Below, piece after piece: positions 1 to 36,390 of a stretch of 64,000 nucleotides of DNA. Source of the DNA: Blepharisma stoltei ATCC 30299. Its lineage: Eukaryota; Protista; Ciliophora. The stretch covers positions 186,001 to 250,000 of the forward strand of contig CBFDEM010000060.1 of the NCBI GenBank assembly GCA_965603825.1, in the 5' to 3' direction. Position numbers and translations under genes: made by a program. Positions within the stretch are counted from its first letter, which is position 1. Every line of letters begins with the position of its first letter. The notes under the pieces are model-generated. The model did no database searches, had not been told where the DNA came from, and saw nothing but the letters and a program-made list of their open reading frames with translations.

Positions 1-276
1 ATTGAGGTAGAAAATCTAATGTTTTGGAAAAGAAAAAATGTGCATAGACAGTATATACAGGTAGTTAAAGAGTATGAAAGAGAAGATGATTTGTCGTGGG
101 AAGGAAAACTTACTGTACTTAAGAAGTCATTGGAGAAATCACACCATTCGACACTACAGTTTTATGGGGCATTTACAAAAAGGCTTAAAGATAGAGATGA
201 GCTTATGAGTCAAAATGCAAAAAAGGCACAAAAGATAATTGAGCTGCTTGATAGAGAAGCAGAAAAAGAAGATTAA
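1..276 (+). CDS. 3' end of hypothetical protein (starts before window)
   Basis: Frame 1 is open from base 1 to TAA at 274-276; charged helical sequence. Confidence 0.6.
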   Translation: MEVENLMFWKRKNVHRQYIQVVKEYEREDDLSWEGKLTVLKKSLEKSHHSTLQFYGAFTKRLKDRDELMSQNAKKAQKIIELLDREAEKED

Positions 277-13011: not shown

Positions 13012-14064
13012 ATGGAAGAGTCAAAAGACCGTAAAGGTGTAAAGCATGGTGGCGATGTGAACCTCAATTGCCGCTTCTACAGAAACCAATTTCCTAAAAT
13101 CGATGACATTGTAGTAGTTGAAGTCCAACGTGTAGAAAACGAAGGCGCTTATGTCTCTTTATTAGAGTACAATAATATTGAAGGGATGATTCCTTTAGGT
13201 GAGCTTTCACGCAAGAGAATCAGATCGGTGACAAAACTTACCCGAATCGGCAAAACAGAGTATGTCACAGTCATAAGAGTAGATGAAGCTAAGGGTTATC
13301 TTGATCTATCTAAGAAACGAGTGGCTCCTGAAGAAATTCAAGAATGCGAAAACAAATTTAATAAGTCGAAGACTGTAAATAGCATACTACGACATGTTGC
13401 ACAAACCACAAAAACAGATATAGAGATTTTATACGAAACTATCGGATGGCCCCTTTATGATAAATATGAGCATGCATATGACGCTTTTAGGATGGCTGTT
13501 AGTGACTCTAATTCAGTGCTTGAAGGCTTAGAAATGACTCAGGAAGTCAAAAATTCTTTGCTGTCAGTCATAAGATCAAGACTATCTCCACATCCTATTA
13601 ATATTAGAGCAGATTTTGGAGTAACCTGCTTTGAATATGATGGGATTGATGCTATAAAAGAAGCTCTTTCAGCTGGCGCTGCTATGGCATCTGACAGAAT
13701 TCAAGTAAAAATCAGACTTATAGCAGCCCCTGTCTTTGTTCTAGTAGTTACTACAATTGATAGGAATCAAGGGATGATTTTAGCAAATAGTGTGCTTAGG
13801 AAAATCATGGAAGAAATCAAATCAAGAGGCGGAAATTTTGTAATGAAAGAAGAGCCCCATTGTTTAAATGATCAAGGCGACTTAGACATAGAAGAATATA
13901 TACAGAAGCAGAATAATGCTAAACATATTGAAGAAGGAGAGGAAGAAAATGATGAAGGTATGGATGTTGATATTGGGGTTGACATAAATGCAATTGATGC
14001 TAAGCAGGAATTGGAAGAAGATGTGGACGAAGGAGAAGCTGAAGAAGAAAAAGGGGAAGCTTAA
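13012..14064 (+). CDS. EIF2S1: Translation initiation factor eIF2 alpha
   Basis: CRFY..FP, GAYVSLLEYNNIEGMI, ELSRKRIRS (regulatory Ser retained), KGYLDLSKKRV. Confidence 0.95.
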   Translation: MEESKDRKGVKHGGDVNLNCRFYRNQFPKIDDIVVVEVQRVENEGAYVSLLEYNNIEGMIPLGELSRKRIRSVTKLTRIGKTEYVTVIRVDEAKGYLDLSKKRVAPEEIQECENKFNKSKTVNSILRHVAQTTKTDIEILYETIGWPLYDKYEHAYDAFRMAVSDSNSVLEGLEMTQEVKNSLLSVIRSRLSPHPINIRADFGVTCFEYDGIDAIKEALSAGAAMASDRIQVKIRLIAAPVFVLVVTTIDRNQGMILANSVLRKIMEEIKSRGGNFVMKEEPHCLNDQGDLDIEEYIQKQNNAKHIEEGEEENDEGMDVDIGVDINAIDAKQELEEDVDEGEAEEEKGEA

Positions 14065-14928
14065 GTTAAAAATAACAATGATAAATATAAAGGAACAAAA
14101 AAGAAATGAGAAAATAAGAAGAAAATTTTATAATTCTCTCAATTTATAAAGAAGCGTGCATCATAATTGATTGTATGCCATCTTTATCATTTTAATAAAT
14201 CTTGCAGTTATTATACTATTCGTGCACTTATCAATTTTGCAAAAAGTTAATAATCCTTTCAAAGTAGGTTTCTTAAGAAATAAAACTCATTAAAAGCTAT
14301 TTTGACTAACTAAATCATTGTGCTGACTTCTATACCATCTATTGAAGATAAAAATGGCTTATTGCAACATCATTATTTAAACCTATTCTGATCTATTATA
14401 AGTAATTTTATAAAATAAACTTGCTTTTCATTATTTTTCTTTTAAATTTGCCTAGTTATGCGGCTAAAAGGCCTCATCCTCAATAGGATAAAGTTTTCTC
14501 TTGCTATAGCTAAGTTAATTAAGCATTTCACAATACAGCAAATTATTTTTTAATCAGAATATTTTCCAATGAATTTGATAATTAAAAAACTCATATGAAT
14601 TATAAAGAAGTATCAAATCAATCCGCTGATATTTTTTAATTTTGTTTGCTGTAACCACTGTTGATATTTTATCTTCCTTATTTTCGCCTACTCTTCGCTT
14701 TTCCTTTGGGAAAAGTTTTCATATTTAGGCTATATATGGATTCTTATTACTTCGTTTTATCAAGAGATGCTATTATATAAATAAATTGACCGTATAGTTT
14801 TAACAAGCATCGACTGCTCTGTTCCTAGATAATGCTTCCTGATGACACCTTTTTCACATCGAGGATAAATATGGCAGAATTTGTGATGATCCATTAATTA
14901 TGGAATTTTATTGGATAATTGTAAAAAT

Positions 14929-15402
14929 ATGAAAAAATATGAGAACTCGATAGAGGCGATTTCTGATCTGCCTCAGTGTATATTCACAAACATGCCATCT
15001 CTACTTAGGCCAATAAGTGAGGATGGAAAATGACCTTTATGCCTTGAACTTCCTAATATTTTTCTATTTGAGCCTATTATTATTTCATCAGAAAGTACAG
15101 AGAATCCTCAAGAACCAGAAGACCCATCTCTATTCCATCAGCCAAGGGAATCAAGATGCAAAAGTATTACAGCTTGCTCTCATACTGACAAAAAGCATTA
15201 TGCGAAAAATATGTGCAATAATTGCTATCACCGATTTGGGAGAAATAAATTAGCTTGGGCTTGCTCTCACCCAGAAAGGCAGCATTATGCAAAAGGAAAG
15301 TGTCAGCTGTGCTATTTGCAGGATTATCACAGATCAAAAGTATTCGGTAAGAGAAGAAAAATACGGTCCTTAAAGGATACAGAGGATAATAATAGTAATT
15401 AA
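14929..15402 (+). CDS. Protein with two CxH..HYAK..CxxCY Cys/His repeats
   Basis: ATG 14929, one in-frame TGA at 15031; CSHTDKKHYAKNMCNNCY and CSHPERQHYAKGKCQLCY. Confidence 0.7.
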
Positions 15403-16238
15403 GTTTAAATCAATGATAATCAGCAATAATATGAGCTGCGATTTTACATTTTATGAAAATATATGTAGTATTATTATGATTTTTTATATCTTTCAATATT
15501 CAGAATCATTTAATTTTTATTAATAAAAATAATGGAGAAAATTTGACATGTCATTTTTGTTGTTAAATTATACCTGATGCTAATAAAATCAGCCAGTTGG
15601 CTGACTAAGCATGATTTGATGTTTATCATCGAAGTTATCCAAAATATTAGATGTGTGTTCAAAATCTAAAATTTTATATTGAATAATAAATAGTAAAAAA
15701 TAATAAAACGAAAAATTCAACAAATGTCTTCTTAATATTATAGAGCATAATTATAATCTTTAAAAAGTCGATTTAACTCTTATCAGATTAAAATCTCAAC
15801 AATAATGTTTAATTTCGACTATAATTCAGATTTACTATAAATAGCTATTAGATATGCAACAGTCTTAGCAGATACGAAGGTATTCTAATGTCTAATAAAT
15901 CTTCTTATTTTCTCTTATAGCTTTTTAGACTATTTTTGTGTGCATAGTATCATAATTTTTCTTGTAAAACTACTATGAGCATACCTTTAATTTTGAAATA
16001 ATTGGCTATCACATCAAAAATAATTATATTTTAAAATAATCTTAAATTAGTGTGAGAAAAATGTAATATAATCATATAAATAAAGTGTATAATAAAAAAT
16101 AATTAATATTGAATAATAAAATAATGAAAAATAAATATTTCATTAGTAAAAATTTAGATCCATTTATAAATGCTTTAGAGATGCTAAACAATTCCGAGAA
16201 CTGAAATGCACGGGTAATAAATAAAATTAATTTTTAAA

Positions 16239-17072
16239 CTATAAATCTCTTTTACTATTTGTTGACCTACCTTCTAATGATTTATTTCGACGAGTTTGCT
16301 TGCGAGTATTTTTTCATATAGGTGTAAACTCTATTTGCGATTTATTTAAGCCATTTTGGGTCTTTTTACCTCCCTTTTCATTTCCGACCTTTTTGTTGCT
16401 TTCCAATTTTTTTTCCACTTTACTTCTGTCCTTGGCCTTATTTTTATTTTCATTGAGAACATTCTTTACATAAGTCCTAAAATGAACTCCACAGTAATTT
16501 TCCACAACTTCACCATCATCTGTTTTGAGCTTTTTGGCTCTATTTTTGCATCCCTCTTGAGCACAAAAAGGCCTTAGTTGTCCCTGATTAATAGGATCAC
16601 AGTATCTTTCTGCTAGTTCTCTATCAAATGTTAATTTCATATCTTCTTCTGTAAACTTGCTTGGCCAAATATACCCATATTCCAGCATAAATGGCTGAAT
16701 TTCATCACGGAACTTTTCTTCATAAAATCATGGCGCTTTTCTTATCAGTGAGCACTTGTGACTTTGATGAAATATTTCCCACCCCCACCATCAAGGATAA
16801 ATAACTTCATTTTCATTTATTTCATAATAAGTCATGTTATTGTTTTTGCCTCTCCCAACCCACTCTGATATGCATTCATTATAATAAAGCTTAAGACATA
16901 ATTCAAAACCTTTTCACATTAGTGTAGCTGGGTGCTTTCTTCATCCTTTTTTAGTCCCATTTATTGCATTCAAAATATTGAATGCCTCAACCCTTTGTTT
17001 CCCAAGCCTTTGATCATCCAAAGCTTTTACACTTTTTTTGATGTTTGGGTATGGCAAAAAAGTAACAACCAT
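16239..17072 (-). CDS. Pyrimidine-dimer DNA glycosylase / T4 endonuclease V-like (MSMEG_6728-type) protein, 277 aa
   Basis: MVVTFLPYP..LDDQRLGKQRVEAFNIL..GWRKHPATLMWKG..EWVGRG..PWWWG..HQSHKCSLIRKAP.FY..YIWP; five in-frame TGA; TAG at 16239-16241. Confidence 0.8.
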
Positions 17073-17178
17073 TTATTACGAAATTCAATTATTTCTTTTT
17101 AAAAAATTCCTGTTTATTTGCATATAAATTTCTATCAGCTATTATTTTATCTATGGCTAATTTTGATATAATTTAGAC

Positions 17179-17463
17179 ATGTCAAAAGGAAAAGGTTTCT
17201 GCTATTACTATTGTCTACTCATATCAATCTTCGGATGTCTCTTTTTGGTGAGTGTTATTTAGACTTACATAGCTTTACTCTGCGCTTTTGACGTGAAAGA
17301 GCTTGATGTGGAAGATAAAACAGAATATACAGGAACAGTATTTATTTCAGCTGGTGTTTATGAAGTTATCGTGGCTATATTGGTAATTTATGGATTTATC
17401 ACTTCTAGGCGTGCAGGAAATGTCTCAGGAAATGGGTATCAGCGTATAGAAGATGAAAAGTAA
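17179..17463 (+). CDS. RNase kappa / V-ATPase subunit f-like two-TM protein (89 aa), missed by ORF track
   Basis: MSKGKGFCYYYCLLISIFGCLFL|TYIALLC..VFISAGVY..; 15-nt intron at 17248-17262. Confidence 0.7.
17248..17262 (+). other. 15-nt intron
   Basis: GTGAGTGTTATTTAG. Confidence 0.8.
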
Positions 17464-18058
17464 GTTTAATGATGAGACTTGCATAAGATAAGTAAACTGC
17501 TGAGATGTCTTGTCTTTGAAAGTGAGTTAAAAATCGATTTCTTTAAAATTTTTTCGGGATTTTGTTTAGAATAAGAGATTGATTGCCTTATCCAATTTTT
17601 CATAATAATTGTTGTGCCTTTTATGAAGAATTTCTTTTGCCTTTATTTTAGTTTAAAATTTTATCAAATTTCTAGAACTCATAAAAATATGATCAATTGC
17701 AAAAAGAGATTTTTGCATATCGCATTTATTAAAAAGTATAAGAATTGGTCATAAGAAATTTTATAAAAAATTCGTAATTTAATACCAAAATTATAATTTC
17801 TAGACTTCTAAATTATTTACTTCAATTTAAAATTATAAAATCTACATACTTTTTGAAAATAAAAAAAACTGATCTGAAAGTTGGTCAACTACGATTGGTA
17901 TAATAATGGTTGCAATAGACTCAATTTTATATTTAACTGCACTAAAATAAATGAAGCAACTTGATTGTTGAGAAAATTTAAAATTATAGCCTTATTAATT
18001 CAGAGATCCATAGAAATTAAAAGGCTATTAAAATTCATTATAATAATCCAATTACTAA

Positions 18059-19105
18059 ATGGGAGGATCTCCTTCTAAAGAAGGATCCCGAGATAGCCTT
18101 GAAGCTCTTGGGATATTCAAAGAAAAAGCTACTGTCGATGATTTTGAAATCCTCAAATACATCGGCAAAGGTAAATTTGGAAAAGTTTATCAAGTAAGAC
18201 ACATAGCTAATGAAAAAATATATGCTATGAAGACCTTAAAAAAATCATACATACAAAAGAATCACCAAATCAGAAACACAAAAAATGAAAGGAATATTCT
18301 GGCAAAATCTTCACATCGTTTTATTGTGAAGTTGCATTATGCATTTAAAACTGACAAAAAACTATATTTGGTGATGGATTATGTCAGTGGTGGGGAACTT
18401 TATACTCACTTAAGGTCACGTGGACCCTTTTTAGAGAGCTGGATAAGGTTTTATGCAGCTGAAATACTCTGTGCTTTAACCTATCTCCATGCAAAAGGTG
18501 TTGTGTATAGAGACTTAAAGCCAGAAAATATATTAGTGCAAAATAACGGACACATAAAATTATCAGATTTTGGACTTTCCATCGCCAACATGGCAGAGTC
18601 AAGCTGTGAAACAGTTTGTGGGACGCCTGCTTATCTGTCCCCAGAGATGCTTAGAGGTGAAACCTATGGTGTCTCAGTAGACATTTGGGCATTAGGAATT
18701 CTCCTCTATGAGCTCGCCTCAGGAACAACCCCATTTTATCACAAAAATCGAATTGCTATGTCGAAAAAGATAATAAATTCAGAAATTGTCTTCCCGTCAG
18801 AGTTTTCTTATGAGTTTAAGTCTTTATTAGAAGGCTTACTTGCAAAAAACGTCAATGAAAGATTTACAATTAACGATGCAAAAAGACACAACTTTTTTGA
18901 AAGTGTTGATTGGGGAAAAGCTGATCAAGGATTATTAAATCCTCCATTTGTCCCTATAACTTCTGGAGAAGAAGACACAAGCAATTTCAGAGAGCTTGAG
19001 ATTGAGCATAGTCCACTCTCACCTCAGGAATTAATGGAAGAGCCTTATGAGCGTGAATCATATTCTGGGTTTTCTTTTGGCGAAGATGGCCAGAATATGA
19101 TATAA
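18059..19105 (+). CDS. AGC-family Ser/Thr kinase (S6K/SGK/PKB-like)
   Basis: MGGS myristoylation-like start, GKGKFGKV, YRDLKPEN, DFG, CGTPAYLSPE, PPFVP, C-terminal YSGFSF hydrophobic motif. Confidence 0.92.
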   Translation: MGGSPSKEGSRDSLEALGIFKEKATVDDFEILKYIGKGKFGKVYQVRHIANEKIYAMKTLKKSYIQKNHQIRNTKNERNILAKSSHRFIVKLHYAFKTDKKLYLVMDYVSGGELYTHLRSRGPFLESWIRFYAAEILCALTYLHAKGVVYRDLKPENILVQNNGHIKLSDFGLSIANMAESSCETVCGTPAYLSPEMLRGETYGVSVDIWALGILLYELASGTTPFYHKNRIAMSKKIINSEIVFPSEFSYEFKSLLEGLLAKNVNERFTINDAKRHNFFESVDWGKADQGLLNPPFVPITSGEEDTSNFRELEIEHSPLSPQELMEEPYERESYSGFSFGEDGQNMI

Positions 19106-19148
19106 CTAATTCAGAAGAATTTAATTAAATGTTTTATAGCTAAAACTG

Positions 19149-19655
19149 TTATTTAATTCCCAATAATTCTTTAGATTTTTTAAAAGCTTCTTTTAATTGT
19201 GCTTTTTCTTCCACTTTAAATTGAGTTAAAACATAATCAGACACTTCTGATATATCTCCAGGTCTTCCTATTCCAATTTTAAGCCTATCAAACTTATTCG
19301 TTTGTAGTGCTGAAATTACAGATATAACTCCATTATGTCCATTTGCACTTCCTCCATTCTTAATCTTAGCTTTACCAATAGGGGTATCCAGGTCATCATG
19401 CAAAATTATCAATTCTTCAAATTGTGTGTTAAAGCTTTTAATTGCTTTTTTTATTATCCCACCACAGATATTCATATAGCTATGAGGCTTAAAAAGTAAA
19501 ATCCCATTGTAATTGGAGATGTAGCCTTCTAGCTTTTTATCGTATTCAAAGCGAGTGCCGAGTGAATCTAAAAATTGCTGTCCTACATTGTGTTTTGTGA
19601 GCTTATAAGCGGGAGGATTTCCTAATCCAATAAGTAATTTATATTTATAACTCAT
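19149..19655 (-). CDS. PTH1: Peptidyl-tRNA hydrolase (Pth1 type)
   Basis: IGLGNP, TKHNVG, KP.SYMN, HDDLD, GGSANGHNG, RLKIGIGRP. Confidence 0.92.
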   Translation of the reverse strand: MSYKYKLLIGLGNPPAYKLTKHNVGQQFLDSLGTRFEYDKKLEGYISNYNGILLFKPHSYMNICGGIIKKAIKSFNTQFEELIILHDDLDTPIGKAKIKNGGSANGHNGVISVISALQTNKFDRLKIGIGRPGDISEVSDYVLTQFKVEEKAQLKEAFKKSKELLGIK

Positions 19656-20293
19656 TGGATTTATAAACCAAATAATTTAATGATAGTTTTGAAATTGCTT
19701 AAAACTAAATTCTAACCATAAATCTTCTCCTCTTGTGTTGAAAATGCTTATAGCATATTATTTGTATTTAAGTAACGTAATATGATCCTCCAGATTTTTA
19801 AGACTTTCATATTTAGATTCTCACTACTTGTGTTGATTTAAATTTGTGATAATCGGATACAAAAATGGGATGCGGATAACTAAATTATCCAAGCTTAAGA
19901 ACTCGTTTTAGGTCACTTGCTTACCTCTATAAATATGAGCCTGTGGCTAATAATGCAAAGCTTCTTCTCTAAGTTGATTCGTAAAATAAGCCAGCCTTCG
20001 CATTTGCTTATGACGTTTTATCGCCACTCTACTAGTCTTAGCCAAATCCATCCTCGCCCAATGGATCTTAACAAATTTTAATATAAATTTATGTCAATTT
20101 CTAATAGATTTGCAAAATTCCCTAACAAATTTCAAAATTTATGGCAAAAATTGCTACATCCCTAAAAAGGGTGGATAACCCGTAGAAACTAAAGAAGTTT
20201 CACCATCAAAATAACTTAAGGAACCTCTAGCTTATGTAAATCAGCCTCAATTTAAGTTGCCATTTACGTGGTGATAATTAATATTGGCCCAAA

Positions 20294-35922: not shown

Positions 35923-36390
35923 ATGAAAATATTTCTGATGGTACTATTAATCTTATTCTCTTTATCAAATGCATGCAATGAAACCACGGGCATTTCCGAT
36001 CTCAAAAACGATACTAATTGATGCACAGAAATCGGAAATTGCTACTTTGATGAAGATTGCCCTCTGCTCCCTTGCATAAAAATATTATGCCCTGAAACAA
36101 ATCCAAATTGCACTCAGCCACCTTGCTACATAAATAGATGCATAAAGCACCGATGCACTGCCCTTGAAAGAGTAACTTCTGACAAGTGTAAAATTGGTGG
36201 ATGTGGAGGCGAATTGTGTTTTGCTCAATCTGATAGTGGAGTAAGCCCTTGCATATACCGCCCAGAAGATGCCTGCTATGGGCTATATGGAACATGTGGT
36301 TATCATTCATATGGATGTGACTGGATAGCAACTCCGTCGTTATACAGGTGTATATTTGAAGCCAGGCACAATAATAGTGTTTGCCCGTAA
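35923..36390 (+). CDS. Secreted cysteine-rich protein (155 aa, 19 Cys), missed by ORF track
   Basis: Signal peptide MKIFLMVLLILFSLSNA, one in-frame TGA, CKIGGCGGELC..PCIYRPEDACY..C..GCDWIATPSLYRC; TAA at 36388-36390. Confidence 0.85.

What the first reader, a model, noticed from the sequence alone, without database searches (positions are those of the whole stretch)
16239..17072. Domesticated prokaryote/virus-type pyrimidine-dimer glycosylase (DenV-like) with an added zinc knuckle
Seen: with TGA=Trp a 277-aa gene appears; the ORF track shows only part of its C-terminal half. Its N-terminal ~140 aa carry TFLPY..LDDQRLGKQRVE..GW..HPA..MW.G..PWW.G..H.SH...L.RK.P..Y..Y.WP. Known: this motif series typifies the MSMEG_6728-type branch of the T4 endonuclease V (Pyr_excise) family of bacteria, phages and giant viruses, with the QRVE Glu as likely catalytic residue. 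Seen: five TGA-Trp codons, a head-to-head position 106 bp from an intron-bearing host gene, and an appended CAQEGC..YCGVH (C3H) module plus a Lys-rich tail. Inference: a horizontally acquired light-independent UV-repair enzyme adapted to host code and nuclear targeting, notable if the host is a pigmented, light-avoiding ciliate.
Basis: partly seen in the sequence, partly recalled or inferred. Interest (0 to 1): 0.8.

Follow-up and report, generated by a model that had tools for sequence, protein, structure and literature searches.

The report
Giant-virus DNA-repair gene domesticated by ciliate
A ciliate with a non-standard genetic code carries and transcribes an intact gene written in its own code whose closest relatives look like giant-virus genes, so it is likely an adopted viral enzyme that is predicted to cut UV-damaged DNA without needing light.

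Summary
The gene is real. Window 16239-17072 (minus strand) reads as 277 aa with TGA=Trp. It passes the cut-offs of Pyr_excise and MSMEG_6728, and its model's best match among 48,161 solved chains is T4 endonuclease V. Contigs from four runs of one study cover it, one with a non-templated poly(A) end. A related organism holds a 90%-identical piece.

The gene sits in a clade with giant-virus context and none of 60 prokaryotic genome loci; its best structural match is a Pithovirus protein. AU tests did not reject a position outside that clade.

New here: prokaryote and phage members start M-Q-T-F (159/179), while the virus clade and this gene start M-V-x-T-F (106/116). After Met removal the N-terminal amine would sit in the same place, as a T4-type nucleophile requires, and would avoid NatB acetylation.

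The UV-dimer substrate is untested, and T4's three arginines are not in register. Verdict: likely a domesticated giant-virus glycosylase/AP lyase; a new variant of a known kind.

The parts
16239..17072 (-). Intronless CDS, 277 aa + TAG, read with TGA=Trp
   Evidence: covered over aa 1-277 or nearly by contigs of runs X1-X4 with no other letters
16653..17072 (-). Pyr_excise / MSMEG_6728-family catalytic domain, aa 1-140, T4 endonuclease V-like fold
   Evidence: VIA-align Z 8.8, rmsd 3.0, 99 aligned, model 2..116 to 1enj 2..125
17067..17069 (-). Val2, predicted free N-terminus after Met removal; candidate Schiff-base nucleophile (inferred)
   Evidence: N-terminal register counts; the structural alignment starts at residue 2 on both sides
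16986..16988 (-). Glu29, candidate equivalent of T4 Glu23 (inferred)
   Evidence: Glu in 327 of 332 family rows; register with T4 DenV read by eye
16482..16592 (-). IN..QL.P.C + C-x4-C-x18-C-x2-H zinc-knuckle module (aa 161-197), shared with environmental relatives
16242..16481 (-). Host-specific tail, aa 198-277: predicted helix to about aa 230, then disordered; 24 K+R against 8 D+E; candidate nuclear-import or DNA-binding tail (untested)
   Evidence: no relative matched more than 82% of the query
16207..16238 (-). Short 3' UTR (24-32 nt); non-templated poly(A) at 16215
   Evidence: loose end of 8 T before 16215 in run X2; a contig end at 16207 in X3; no T-run at that place in the window
17073..17178 (.). 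106-bp AT-rich spacer between two divergent start codons; probable shared promoter (inferred)
17179..17463 (+). Divergent host gene, 89 aa, with a 15-nt intron at 17248-17262; no family hit on exon 2

Best explanation
This is an intact, transcribed ciliate gene written in the host's UGA=Trp code, likely taken singly from a Pithovirus-like giant virus, and predicted to encode a T4-endonuclease-V-type DNA glycosylase/AP lyase that would start light-independent repair of UV pyrimidine dimers. Shown: the ORF, recoding, polyadenylated transcript, family membership, fold, and relatives that share the knuckle. Inferred mechanism: Met1 is removed; the free amine of Val2 attacks C1' of the damaged nucleotide with Glu29 as the acid/base; the AP site is nicked and host base-excision repair finishes the job. 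The inherited knuckle and the new basic tail would help DNA binding or nuclear import. The Val start, inherited from the virus, would keep the amine from being acetylated by NatB, which made the gene ready for use in a eukaryotic cell.
For: Gene and expression. Family. Fold: T4 EndoV is the top match of 48,161 chains, Z 8.8 against 5.8 for the next. Host-like codon use: score 0.138 within the range 0.062-0.181 of 26 window ORFs; 5 of 10 Trp codons are TGA against 31 of 107. Neighbours are ordinary eukaryotic genes: 18 of 24 window ORFs hit Pfam families and none is a viral hallmark. Origin: the gene lies in a 137-row clade (SH 92) holding 0 of the 60 placed prokaryotic genome loci. In IQ-TREE it lies in a 52-row clade at 100/96 and, with aa 1-205, nested in a 27-row clade at 95/91. 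Context loci of the clade carry NCLDV capsid (L068, L080, L124), DNA polymerase B (L169) and a poly(A) polymerase regulatory subunit (L126). The knuckle-bearing relative on L116 lies two genes from a protein whose best structural matches are Pithovirus-group proteins (E 4e-16). The best BFVD matches of the gene's own model include Pithovirus sibericum (rank 1, E 5e-12 over 216 columns), Lausannevirus and Pithovirus LCPAC101. The knuckle occurs in 37 of 137 rows inside the clade and 1 of 195 outside. Register: M-V-x-T-F in 106 of 116 parsed rows inside, M-Q-T-F in 159 of 179 outside; in 99 further proteins, 46 M-V-x-T-F and 51 M-Q-T-F. NatB acetylates Met-Gln starts at nearly 100% (PMC11735805, passages). 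The chlorovirus homologue repairs UV damage in infected eukaryotic cells (PMC7019647, passages).
Against: AU tests did not reject holding the gene with the prokaryote/phage rows: p 0.35 and p 0.198. The nearest sister group, P0002-P0006, has no genomic context here; it was not found in viral contigs. Sequence likeness to T4 DenV is negligible (hhalign 0.9%; HMM E 0.02), and Foldseek gave T4 only E 1.2. T4 Arg3, Arg22 and Arg26 (roles recalled) have no Arg in register. Position 32 is Asn where the family has Gln (304 of 332 rows). Val starts are also NatA substrates. The 127 neighbours of 68 prokaryotic loci show no repair context; no family occurs more than 3 times. No activity has been shown for any MSMEG_6728-family member in the papers seen.
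Confidence: 0.55

Rival explanations
1. Same origin and chemistry, but the main substrates are oxidised or ring-opened bases and AP sites rather than pyrimidine dimers, which would suit photo-oxidative damage in a pigmented cell.
For: The T4 arginines are not in register. MSMEG_6728 falls about 5-fold in a sigF mutant that loses pigment and oxidative-stress resistance (PMC4694148, table passage). The chlorovirus enzyme has a broader substrate range than T4, and a cited title reports formamidopyrimidine excision.
Against: The only solved fold match is the dimer-specific T4 enzyme. No direct data exist for either substrate.
Confidence: 0.2
2. The gene is older and more widespread in protists than it looks: the unnamed sister proteins are cellular genes, or the ciliate lineage is sister to, or donor of, the viral clade.
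For: AU tests allow a position outside the viral clade. P0002-P0006 lack context. Ciliates with reassigned stops would be mis-called in metagenome protein sets (inference).
Against: No hit carried a eukaryote name, although most have no name at all. Identity drops straight from 100% to about 50%. Context loci of the clade that carry a marker point to giant viruses.
Confidence: 0.12
3. The donor was a bacterium, archaeon or tailed phage (food or symbiont), and the knuckle was added in the host.
For: The family is common in prokaryotes and phages. AU tests did not reject the grouping.
Against: The M-V-x-T-F start and the knuckle module are shared with the viral clade and nearly absent outside it. 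None of 60 placed prokaryotic genome loci falls in the clade.
Confidence: 0.06
4. The protein has been repurposed away from repair, for example as a DNA-binding or nicking factor in macronuclear development or antiviral defence.
For: A unique basic tail; Q-to-N change at position 32; a weak likeness of knuckle plus helix to the ubiquitin-binding Rabex-5 module (Z 5.8, rmsd 1.8, 58 aligned).
Against: Nearly all family-invariant residues are kept. No stage-specific data were available.
Confidence: 0.06
5. Contaminant, assembly artefact or dead viral relic.
For: Intronless and without named eukaryotic relatives.
Against: It needs the host's UGA=Trp code at conserved Trp residues, lies between host genes on a contig of 861,209 bases, is polyadenylated, and has a 90% match in another organism.
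Confidence: 0.01

Closest known systems
T4 endonuclease V (DenV, T4-PDG; PDB 1ENJ/2END; Pfam PF03013)
   Same: Same Pfam family (74.3 and 53.3 bits) and fold (Z 8.8); N-terminus at residue 2 and a Glu on the first long helix.
   Different: About 19% identity; six extra residues before the helix; Arg3, Arg22 and Arg26 not in register; extra knuckle and tail; cellular and nuclear-encoded.
MSMEG_6728 family (NCBIfam NF038085)
   Same: Above the cut-off; the family-invariant residues are kept.
   Different: Prokaryotic and phage members start M-Q-T-F and are mostly 130-170 aa without a knuckle; listed as unknown or hypothetical in both papers seen.
Giant-virus Pyr_excise proteins with C-terminal add-ons (Pithovirus sibericum W5S5R3, Lausannevirus F2WLV7; environmental P0002-P0006, P0238-P0258, L116)
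   Same: M-V-x-T-F start, GYxW motif, knuckle module, 41-51% identity over aa 1-204.
   Different: Standard code, no 80-aa basic tail, uncharacterised.
Chlorovirus CV-PDG
   Same: A functional PF03013-type repair enzyme of a eukaryotic virus (PMC7019647, passages).
   Different: T4-like branch; only a weak structural match here (Q9W9V3, E 1.9); stays in the virus.
Giant-virus-to-protist gene transfer (for example Trichosphaerium, PMC10521059; GEVEs, PMC13524828)
   Same: Expressed host genes of giant-virus origin (passages).
   Different: A single gene in a ciliate somatic-type genome, rewritten into a non-standard code, with no viral block around it.

Membership tests
Pfam PF03013 Pyr_excise | Score above the gathering cut-off | tested here: met
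   74.3 bits against 23, aa 3-82
NCBIfam NF038085 MSMEG_6728 | Score above the curated cut-off | tested here: met
   114.5 bits against 100, aa 4-137
T4 endonuclease V type glycosylase/AP lyase | EndoV fold | tested here: met
   Z 8.8, rmsd 3.0, 99 aligned; top of 48,161 chains; on a predicted model
T4 endonuclease V type glycosylase/AP lyase | Catalytic Glu on the first long helix (T4 Glu23; role recalled) | tested here: met
   E29 is Glu in 327 of 332 rows; equivalence to Glu23 read by eye
T4 endonuclease V type glycosylase/AP lyase | N-terminal residue in the place of Thr2 (role recalled) | tested here: met
   Alignment starts at 2 and 2; fixed N-terminal register across the family. Whether the amine is free in vivo was not testable.
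DenV proper (T4/chlorovirus branch) | Arg3, Arg22, Arg26 in register (roles recalled) | tested here: not met
   V3/T4, V28 and N32 by eye; the family keeps R22, K25 and R27 instead. Not filed as DenV proper.
T4 endonuclease V type glycosylase/AP lyase | CPD glycosylase and AP lyase activity | not testable with these tools
   needs an assay
DUF5763 (PF19067) giant-virus knuckle | Pfam hit on the knuckle | tested here: not met
   No hit at E up to 1, although relatives P0035 and L153 hit and score weakly on the knuckle HMM
Giant endogenous viral element | Block of viral hallmark genes | tested here: not met
   0 of 24 window ORFs scanned hit a viral hallmark family; smaller and intron-split genes were not scanned
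Domesticated horizontally acquired gene | Integrated, adapted to host code and codon use, transcribed | tested here: met
Domesticated horizontally acquired gene | Nested in a donor clade with alternatives rejected | tested here: inconclusive
   Nested with support but AU p 0.35 and 0.198
Domesticated horizontally acquired gene | Kept under purifying selection in related species; absent from wider kin | tested here: inconclusive
   179-nt piece at 90.5% in run X5 and 54-nt piece at 83% in X6; the changed positions were not shown, so no dN/dS; no ciliate genome could be searched

The most novel reading that the evidence does not exclude
A Pithovirus-like giant virus gave a heterotrich ciliate's germline a repair enzyme of a class that cellular eukaryotes are not known to use, leaving a record of giant-virus contact with ciliates. 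The whole giant-virus branch switched its start from Met-Gln to Met-Val to keep the catalytic alpha-amine free of NatB acetylation, and this pre-adapted the enzyme for capture. The ciliate now uses it for dark repair of UV or photo-oxidative damage.
Probability: 0.35. Interest if true: 0.78.

Novelty: new variant of a known kind. Interest (0 to 1): 0.58.

Why it matters
If the function holds, a eukaryotic cell has its own endonuclease-V-type dimer glycosylase, an extra repair route known mainly from phages, prokaryotes and chloroviruses. It also gives a tractable way to assign a function to the large, uncharacterised MSMEG_6728 branch. A 2025 paper states that giant viruses had not been found to infect ciliates directly (PMC12644861, passage); a fully recoded giant-virus gene points to past transfer into a ciliate's heritable genome, by infection or by feeding. 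The M-Q versus M-V switch is a simple, testable example of a viral enzyme adapting to eukaryotic N-terminal processing.

Tried and rejected
Plus strand and table 11: no long ORF. Sequence search of solved structures found no relative, with the single protein or the profile; only fold comparison found T4 EndoV. A single-protein scan of viral contigs found nothing. Scans aimed at the two knuckle-bearing subgroups returned only more distant relatives, so L116 is the only context for the near clade. The ESM Atlas gave no usable hit for the knuckle; for aa 1-200 its best hit was a mostly Nucleocytoviricota cluster at 0.83, a lead only. Prokaryotic gene neighbourhoods gave no functional hint. No whole genome was held, so paralogues, photolyases and NER genes of the host could not be checked. 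No listed run is on record as RNA; I treat X1-X6 as RNA because the neighbour's intron is missing in their contigs (5 of 6 runs) and intergenic bins are uncovered. Contig depth was not used to rank expression. Paper searches listed nothing that describes a ciliate Pyr_excise gene (listings, plus term look-ups); the library is partial, and the supplement of PMC9942806 could not be read and may bear on this. Searches found no paper on T4 catalytic residues, so those roles are recalled. Earlier findings by sequence, by first word set and by genome: none.

Full report
Observation. The minus strand of 16239-17072 translates under code 4 to 277 aa, with TGA at residues 44, 53, 94, 115 and 253. Under table 11 it breaks into six pieces, the longest aa 116-252. 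Two TGA codons lie on family-conserved tryptophans: W in 291 and 350 of 357 other rows. The protein passes the cut-offs of Pfam Pyr_excise (74.3 bits against 23) and NCBIfam MSMEG_6728 (114.5 against 100). The divergent neighbour starts 106 bp away and has a 15-nt GT-AG intron.

Host. 18 of 24 window ORFs scanned hit ordinary Pfam families (MCM, 14-3-3, eIF2-alpha, S7e, MORN and others); none hit a viral hallmark. All 26 ORFs used as reference end in TAA or TAG. UGA=Trp with 15-16-bp introns is what PMC9942806 reports for Blepharisma (passages), so the host is probably that genus. That Blepharisma is pigmented and avoids light is recalled. The gene's codon score (0.138) lies inside the host range (0.062-0.181), GC3 is 0.27 against 0.31, and 5 of 10 Trp codons are TGA against 31 of 107.

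Expression. Contigs of four runs from one study cover aa 1-249 to aa 1-277 with no other letters. One has 8 non-templated T before 16215, which is a poly(A) tail 24 nt after the stop. The neighbour's intron is left out in 3 of 4 runs and intergenic bins are empty. The runs are only guessed to be RNA, but these features fit mRNA. Run X5, from another organism, holds a 179-nt piece over aa 155-214 with 17 differences (9.5%, against 3.3-6.8% for the best pieces of three neighbours). Run X6 holds a 54-nt piece with 9 differences, which is weak.

The knuckle was not added by the host. The five best hits, at 46-50% identity over about 73% of the query, end in the same C-x4-C...CGVH module. A profile search found about 25 more such proteins. 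An HMM of the module built from 24 environmental proteins, without the query, scores it at 49.5 bits. Only aa 198-277 are unique: predicted helix to about 230, then low confidence, with 24 K+R in 80 residues.

Origin. I pooled 497 relatives, reduced them to 358 at 80% identity and kept the 332 with at least 100 residues in the domain. The gene falls in a 137-row clade (SH 92). None of the 60 prokaryotic genome loci that could be placed (of 80 fetched) is inside it. The knuckle is in 37 of 137 rows inside and 1 of 195 outside. Selected neighbours of in-clade loci include NCLDV major capsid protein (L068, L080, L124), DNA polymerase B (L169) and a poly(A) polymerase regulatory subunit (L126); several loci gave no marker. 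IQ-TREE on 78 chosen rows puts it in a 52-row clade at 100/96 that excludes 26 prokaryote/phage rows. On 53 rows with aa 1-205 it nests in a 27-row clade at 95/91. The only near relative with context, L116, lies beside a heliorhodopsin and a protein whose model best matches Pithovirus-group proteins. Homologues of that neighbour share longest-contig lengths (63,785 and 11,406) with two knuckle-bearing glycosylases, which hints at kept gene order. The gene's own model best matches Pithovirus sibericum W5S5R3 (E 5e-12). Against this, AU tests did not reject holding the gene with the prokaryote rows (p 0.35 and 0.198), so a place as sister to the viral clade is not excluded. The closest group, P0002-P0006, has no context. 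Its viral nature is inferred.

Mechanism. The model (14 sequences, pLDDT 80) matches T4 endonuclease V as the best of 48,161 chains (Z 8.8, rmsd 3.0, 99 aligned; next 5.8), aligned from residue 2 to residue 2. Sequence likeness is negligible. By eye, T4 L12-D14-Q15-L17-E23 lines up with L18-D20-Q21-L23-E29, and E29 is Glu in 327 of 332 rows. In T4 the nucleophile is the alpha-amine of Thr2 and Glu23 is catalytic (recalled; two searches found no paper). The family holds its N-terminus at a fixed distance from the T-F motif in two ways. Outside the clade, 159 of 179 parsed rows start M-Q-T-F. Inside, 106 of 116 start M-V-x-T-F; 21 and 16 rows did not parse. A later set of 99 proteins gave 46 M-V-x-T-F, 51 M-Q-T-F and 2 unparsed, and all 25 knuckle-bearers were M-V. 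Met is removed before Val and kept before Gln, so both leave the amine in the same place. NatB acetylates Met-Gln starts at nearly 100%, while Val starts are NatA substrates, which are often only partly acetylated (PMC11735805, passages). I infer that the amine is catalytic and that the viral Val start protects it. The switch may have happened once, so the counts show a conserved trait and not many independent events.

What is not shown. T4 Arg3, Arg22 and Arg26 have no Arg in register; the family keeps R22, K25 and R27 instead, and this gene has Asn32 where 304 of 332 rows have Gln. MSMEG_6728 is listed as unknown or hypothetical, and as SigF-dependent (PMC7174638 and PMC4694148, passages). 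Prokaryotic neighbours are scattered (127 ORFs from 68 loci). The chlorovirus enzyme repairs UV damage and has a broader range than T4's (PMC7019647, passages). The substrate could therefore be dimers, oxidised bases, or both.

Novelty. The family and virus-to-protist transfer are known (PMC10521059 and PMC13524828, passages). Searches listed no report of a ciliate member; the library is partial and one supplement was unreadable. PMC12644861 says giant viruses had not been found to infect ciliates directly but occur with them (passages). I rate this a new variant of a known kind: solid as a domesticated gene, likely giant-viral in origin, and untested in function.

Noticed in passing
window 35923-36390 (+): Secreted-looking 155-aa Cys-rich ORF with weak hits to the prokaryotic eight-cysteine-cluster models TIGR04289 and TIGR04292 (both below cut-off) and the second-lowest codon score of 26 ORFs; a possible second foreign gene.
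   Followed up: partly
L116:762-2471: In a Pithovirus-like contig the knuckle-bearing glycosylase lies directly upstream of a heliorhodopsin, echoing pairs reported in CPR bacteria by earlier notes of this scan.
   Followed up: partly
window 16370-16570 (aa 168-233): Knuckle plus following helix aligns with the ubiquitin-binding Rabex-5 1-74 module (Z 5.8, rmsd 1.8, 58 aligned); may be only the long helix.
   Followed up: no
window 13020-14082 and 17144-17521: Run X5 holds two versions of eIF2-alpha (56 and 179 differences) and runs X5 and X6 each hold two versions of the small neighbour gene (12-13 and 35 differences): paralogues or mixed cultures.
   Followed up: no
window 14929-15402 (+): 157-aa ORF with two tandem C-x-H...HYAK..C..CY units and no family hit; only paralogue contigs touch it, at 15188-15227, so it belongs to a multi-copy family.
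   Followed up: partly
window 18103-19800: One contig of run X1 spans the convergent kinase and peptidyl-tRNA hydrolase genes, which suggests overlapping 3' ends.
   Followed up: no
P0007, P0009, P0035, P0120: The virus-type branch swaps C-terminal modules: Rho_N, 2C_adapt, single or double C3H knuckle, or a 300-aa extension; prokaryotic members mostly have none.
   Followed up: partly
L169:5350-7953 and L123:8544-9764: Intein-like (Hom_end_hint) domains in genes right next to the glycosylase in two giant-virus-like contigs.
   Followed up: no
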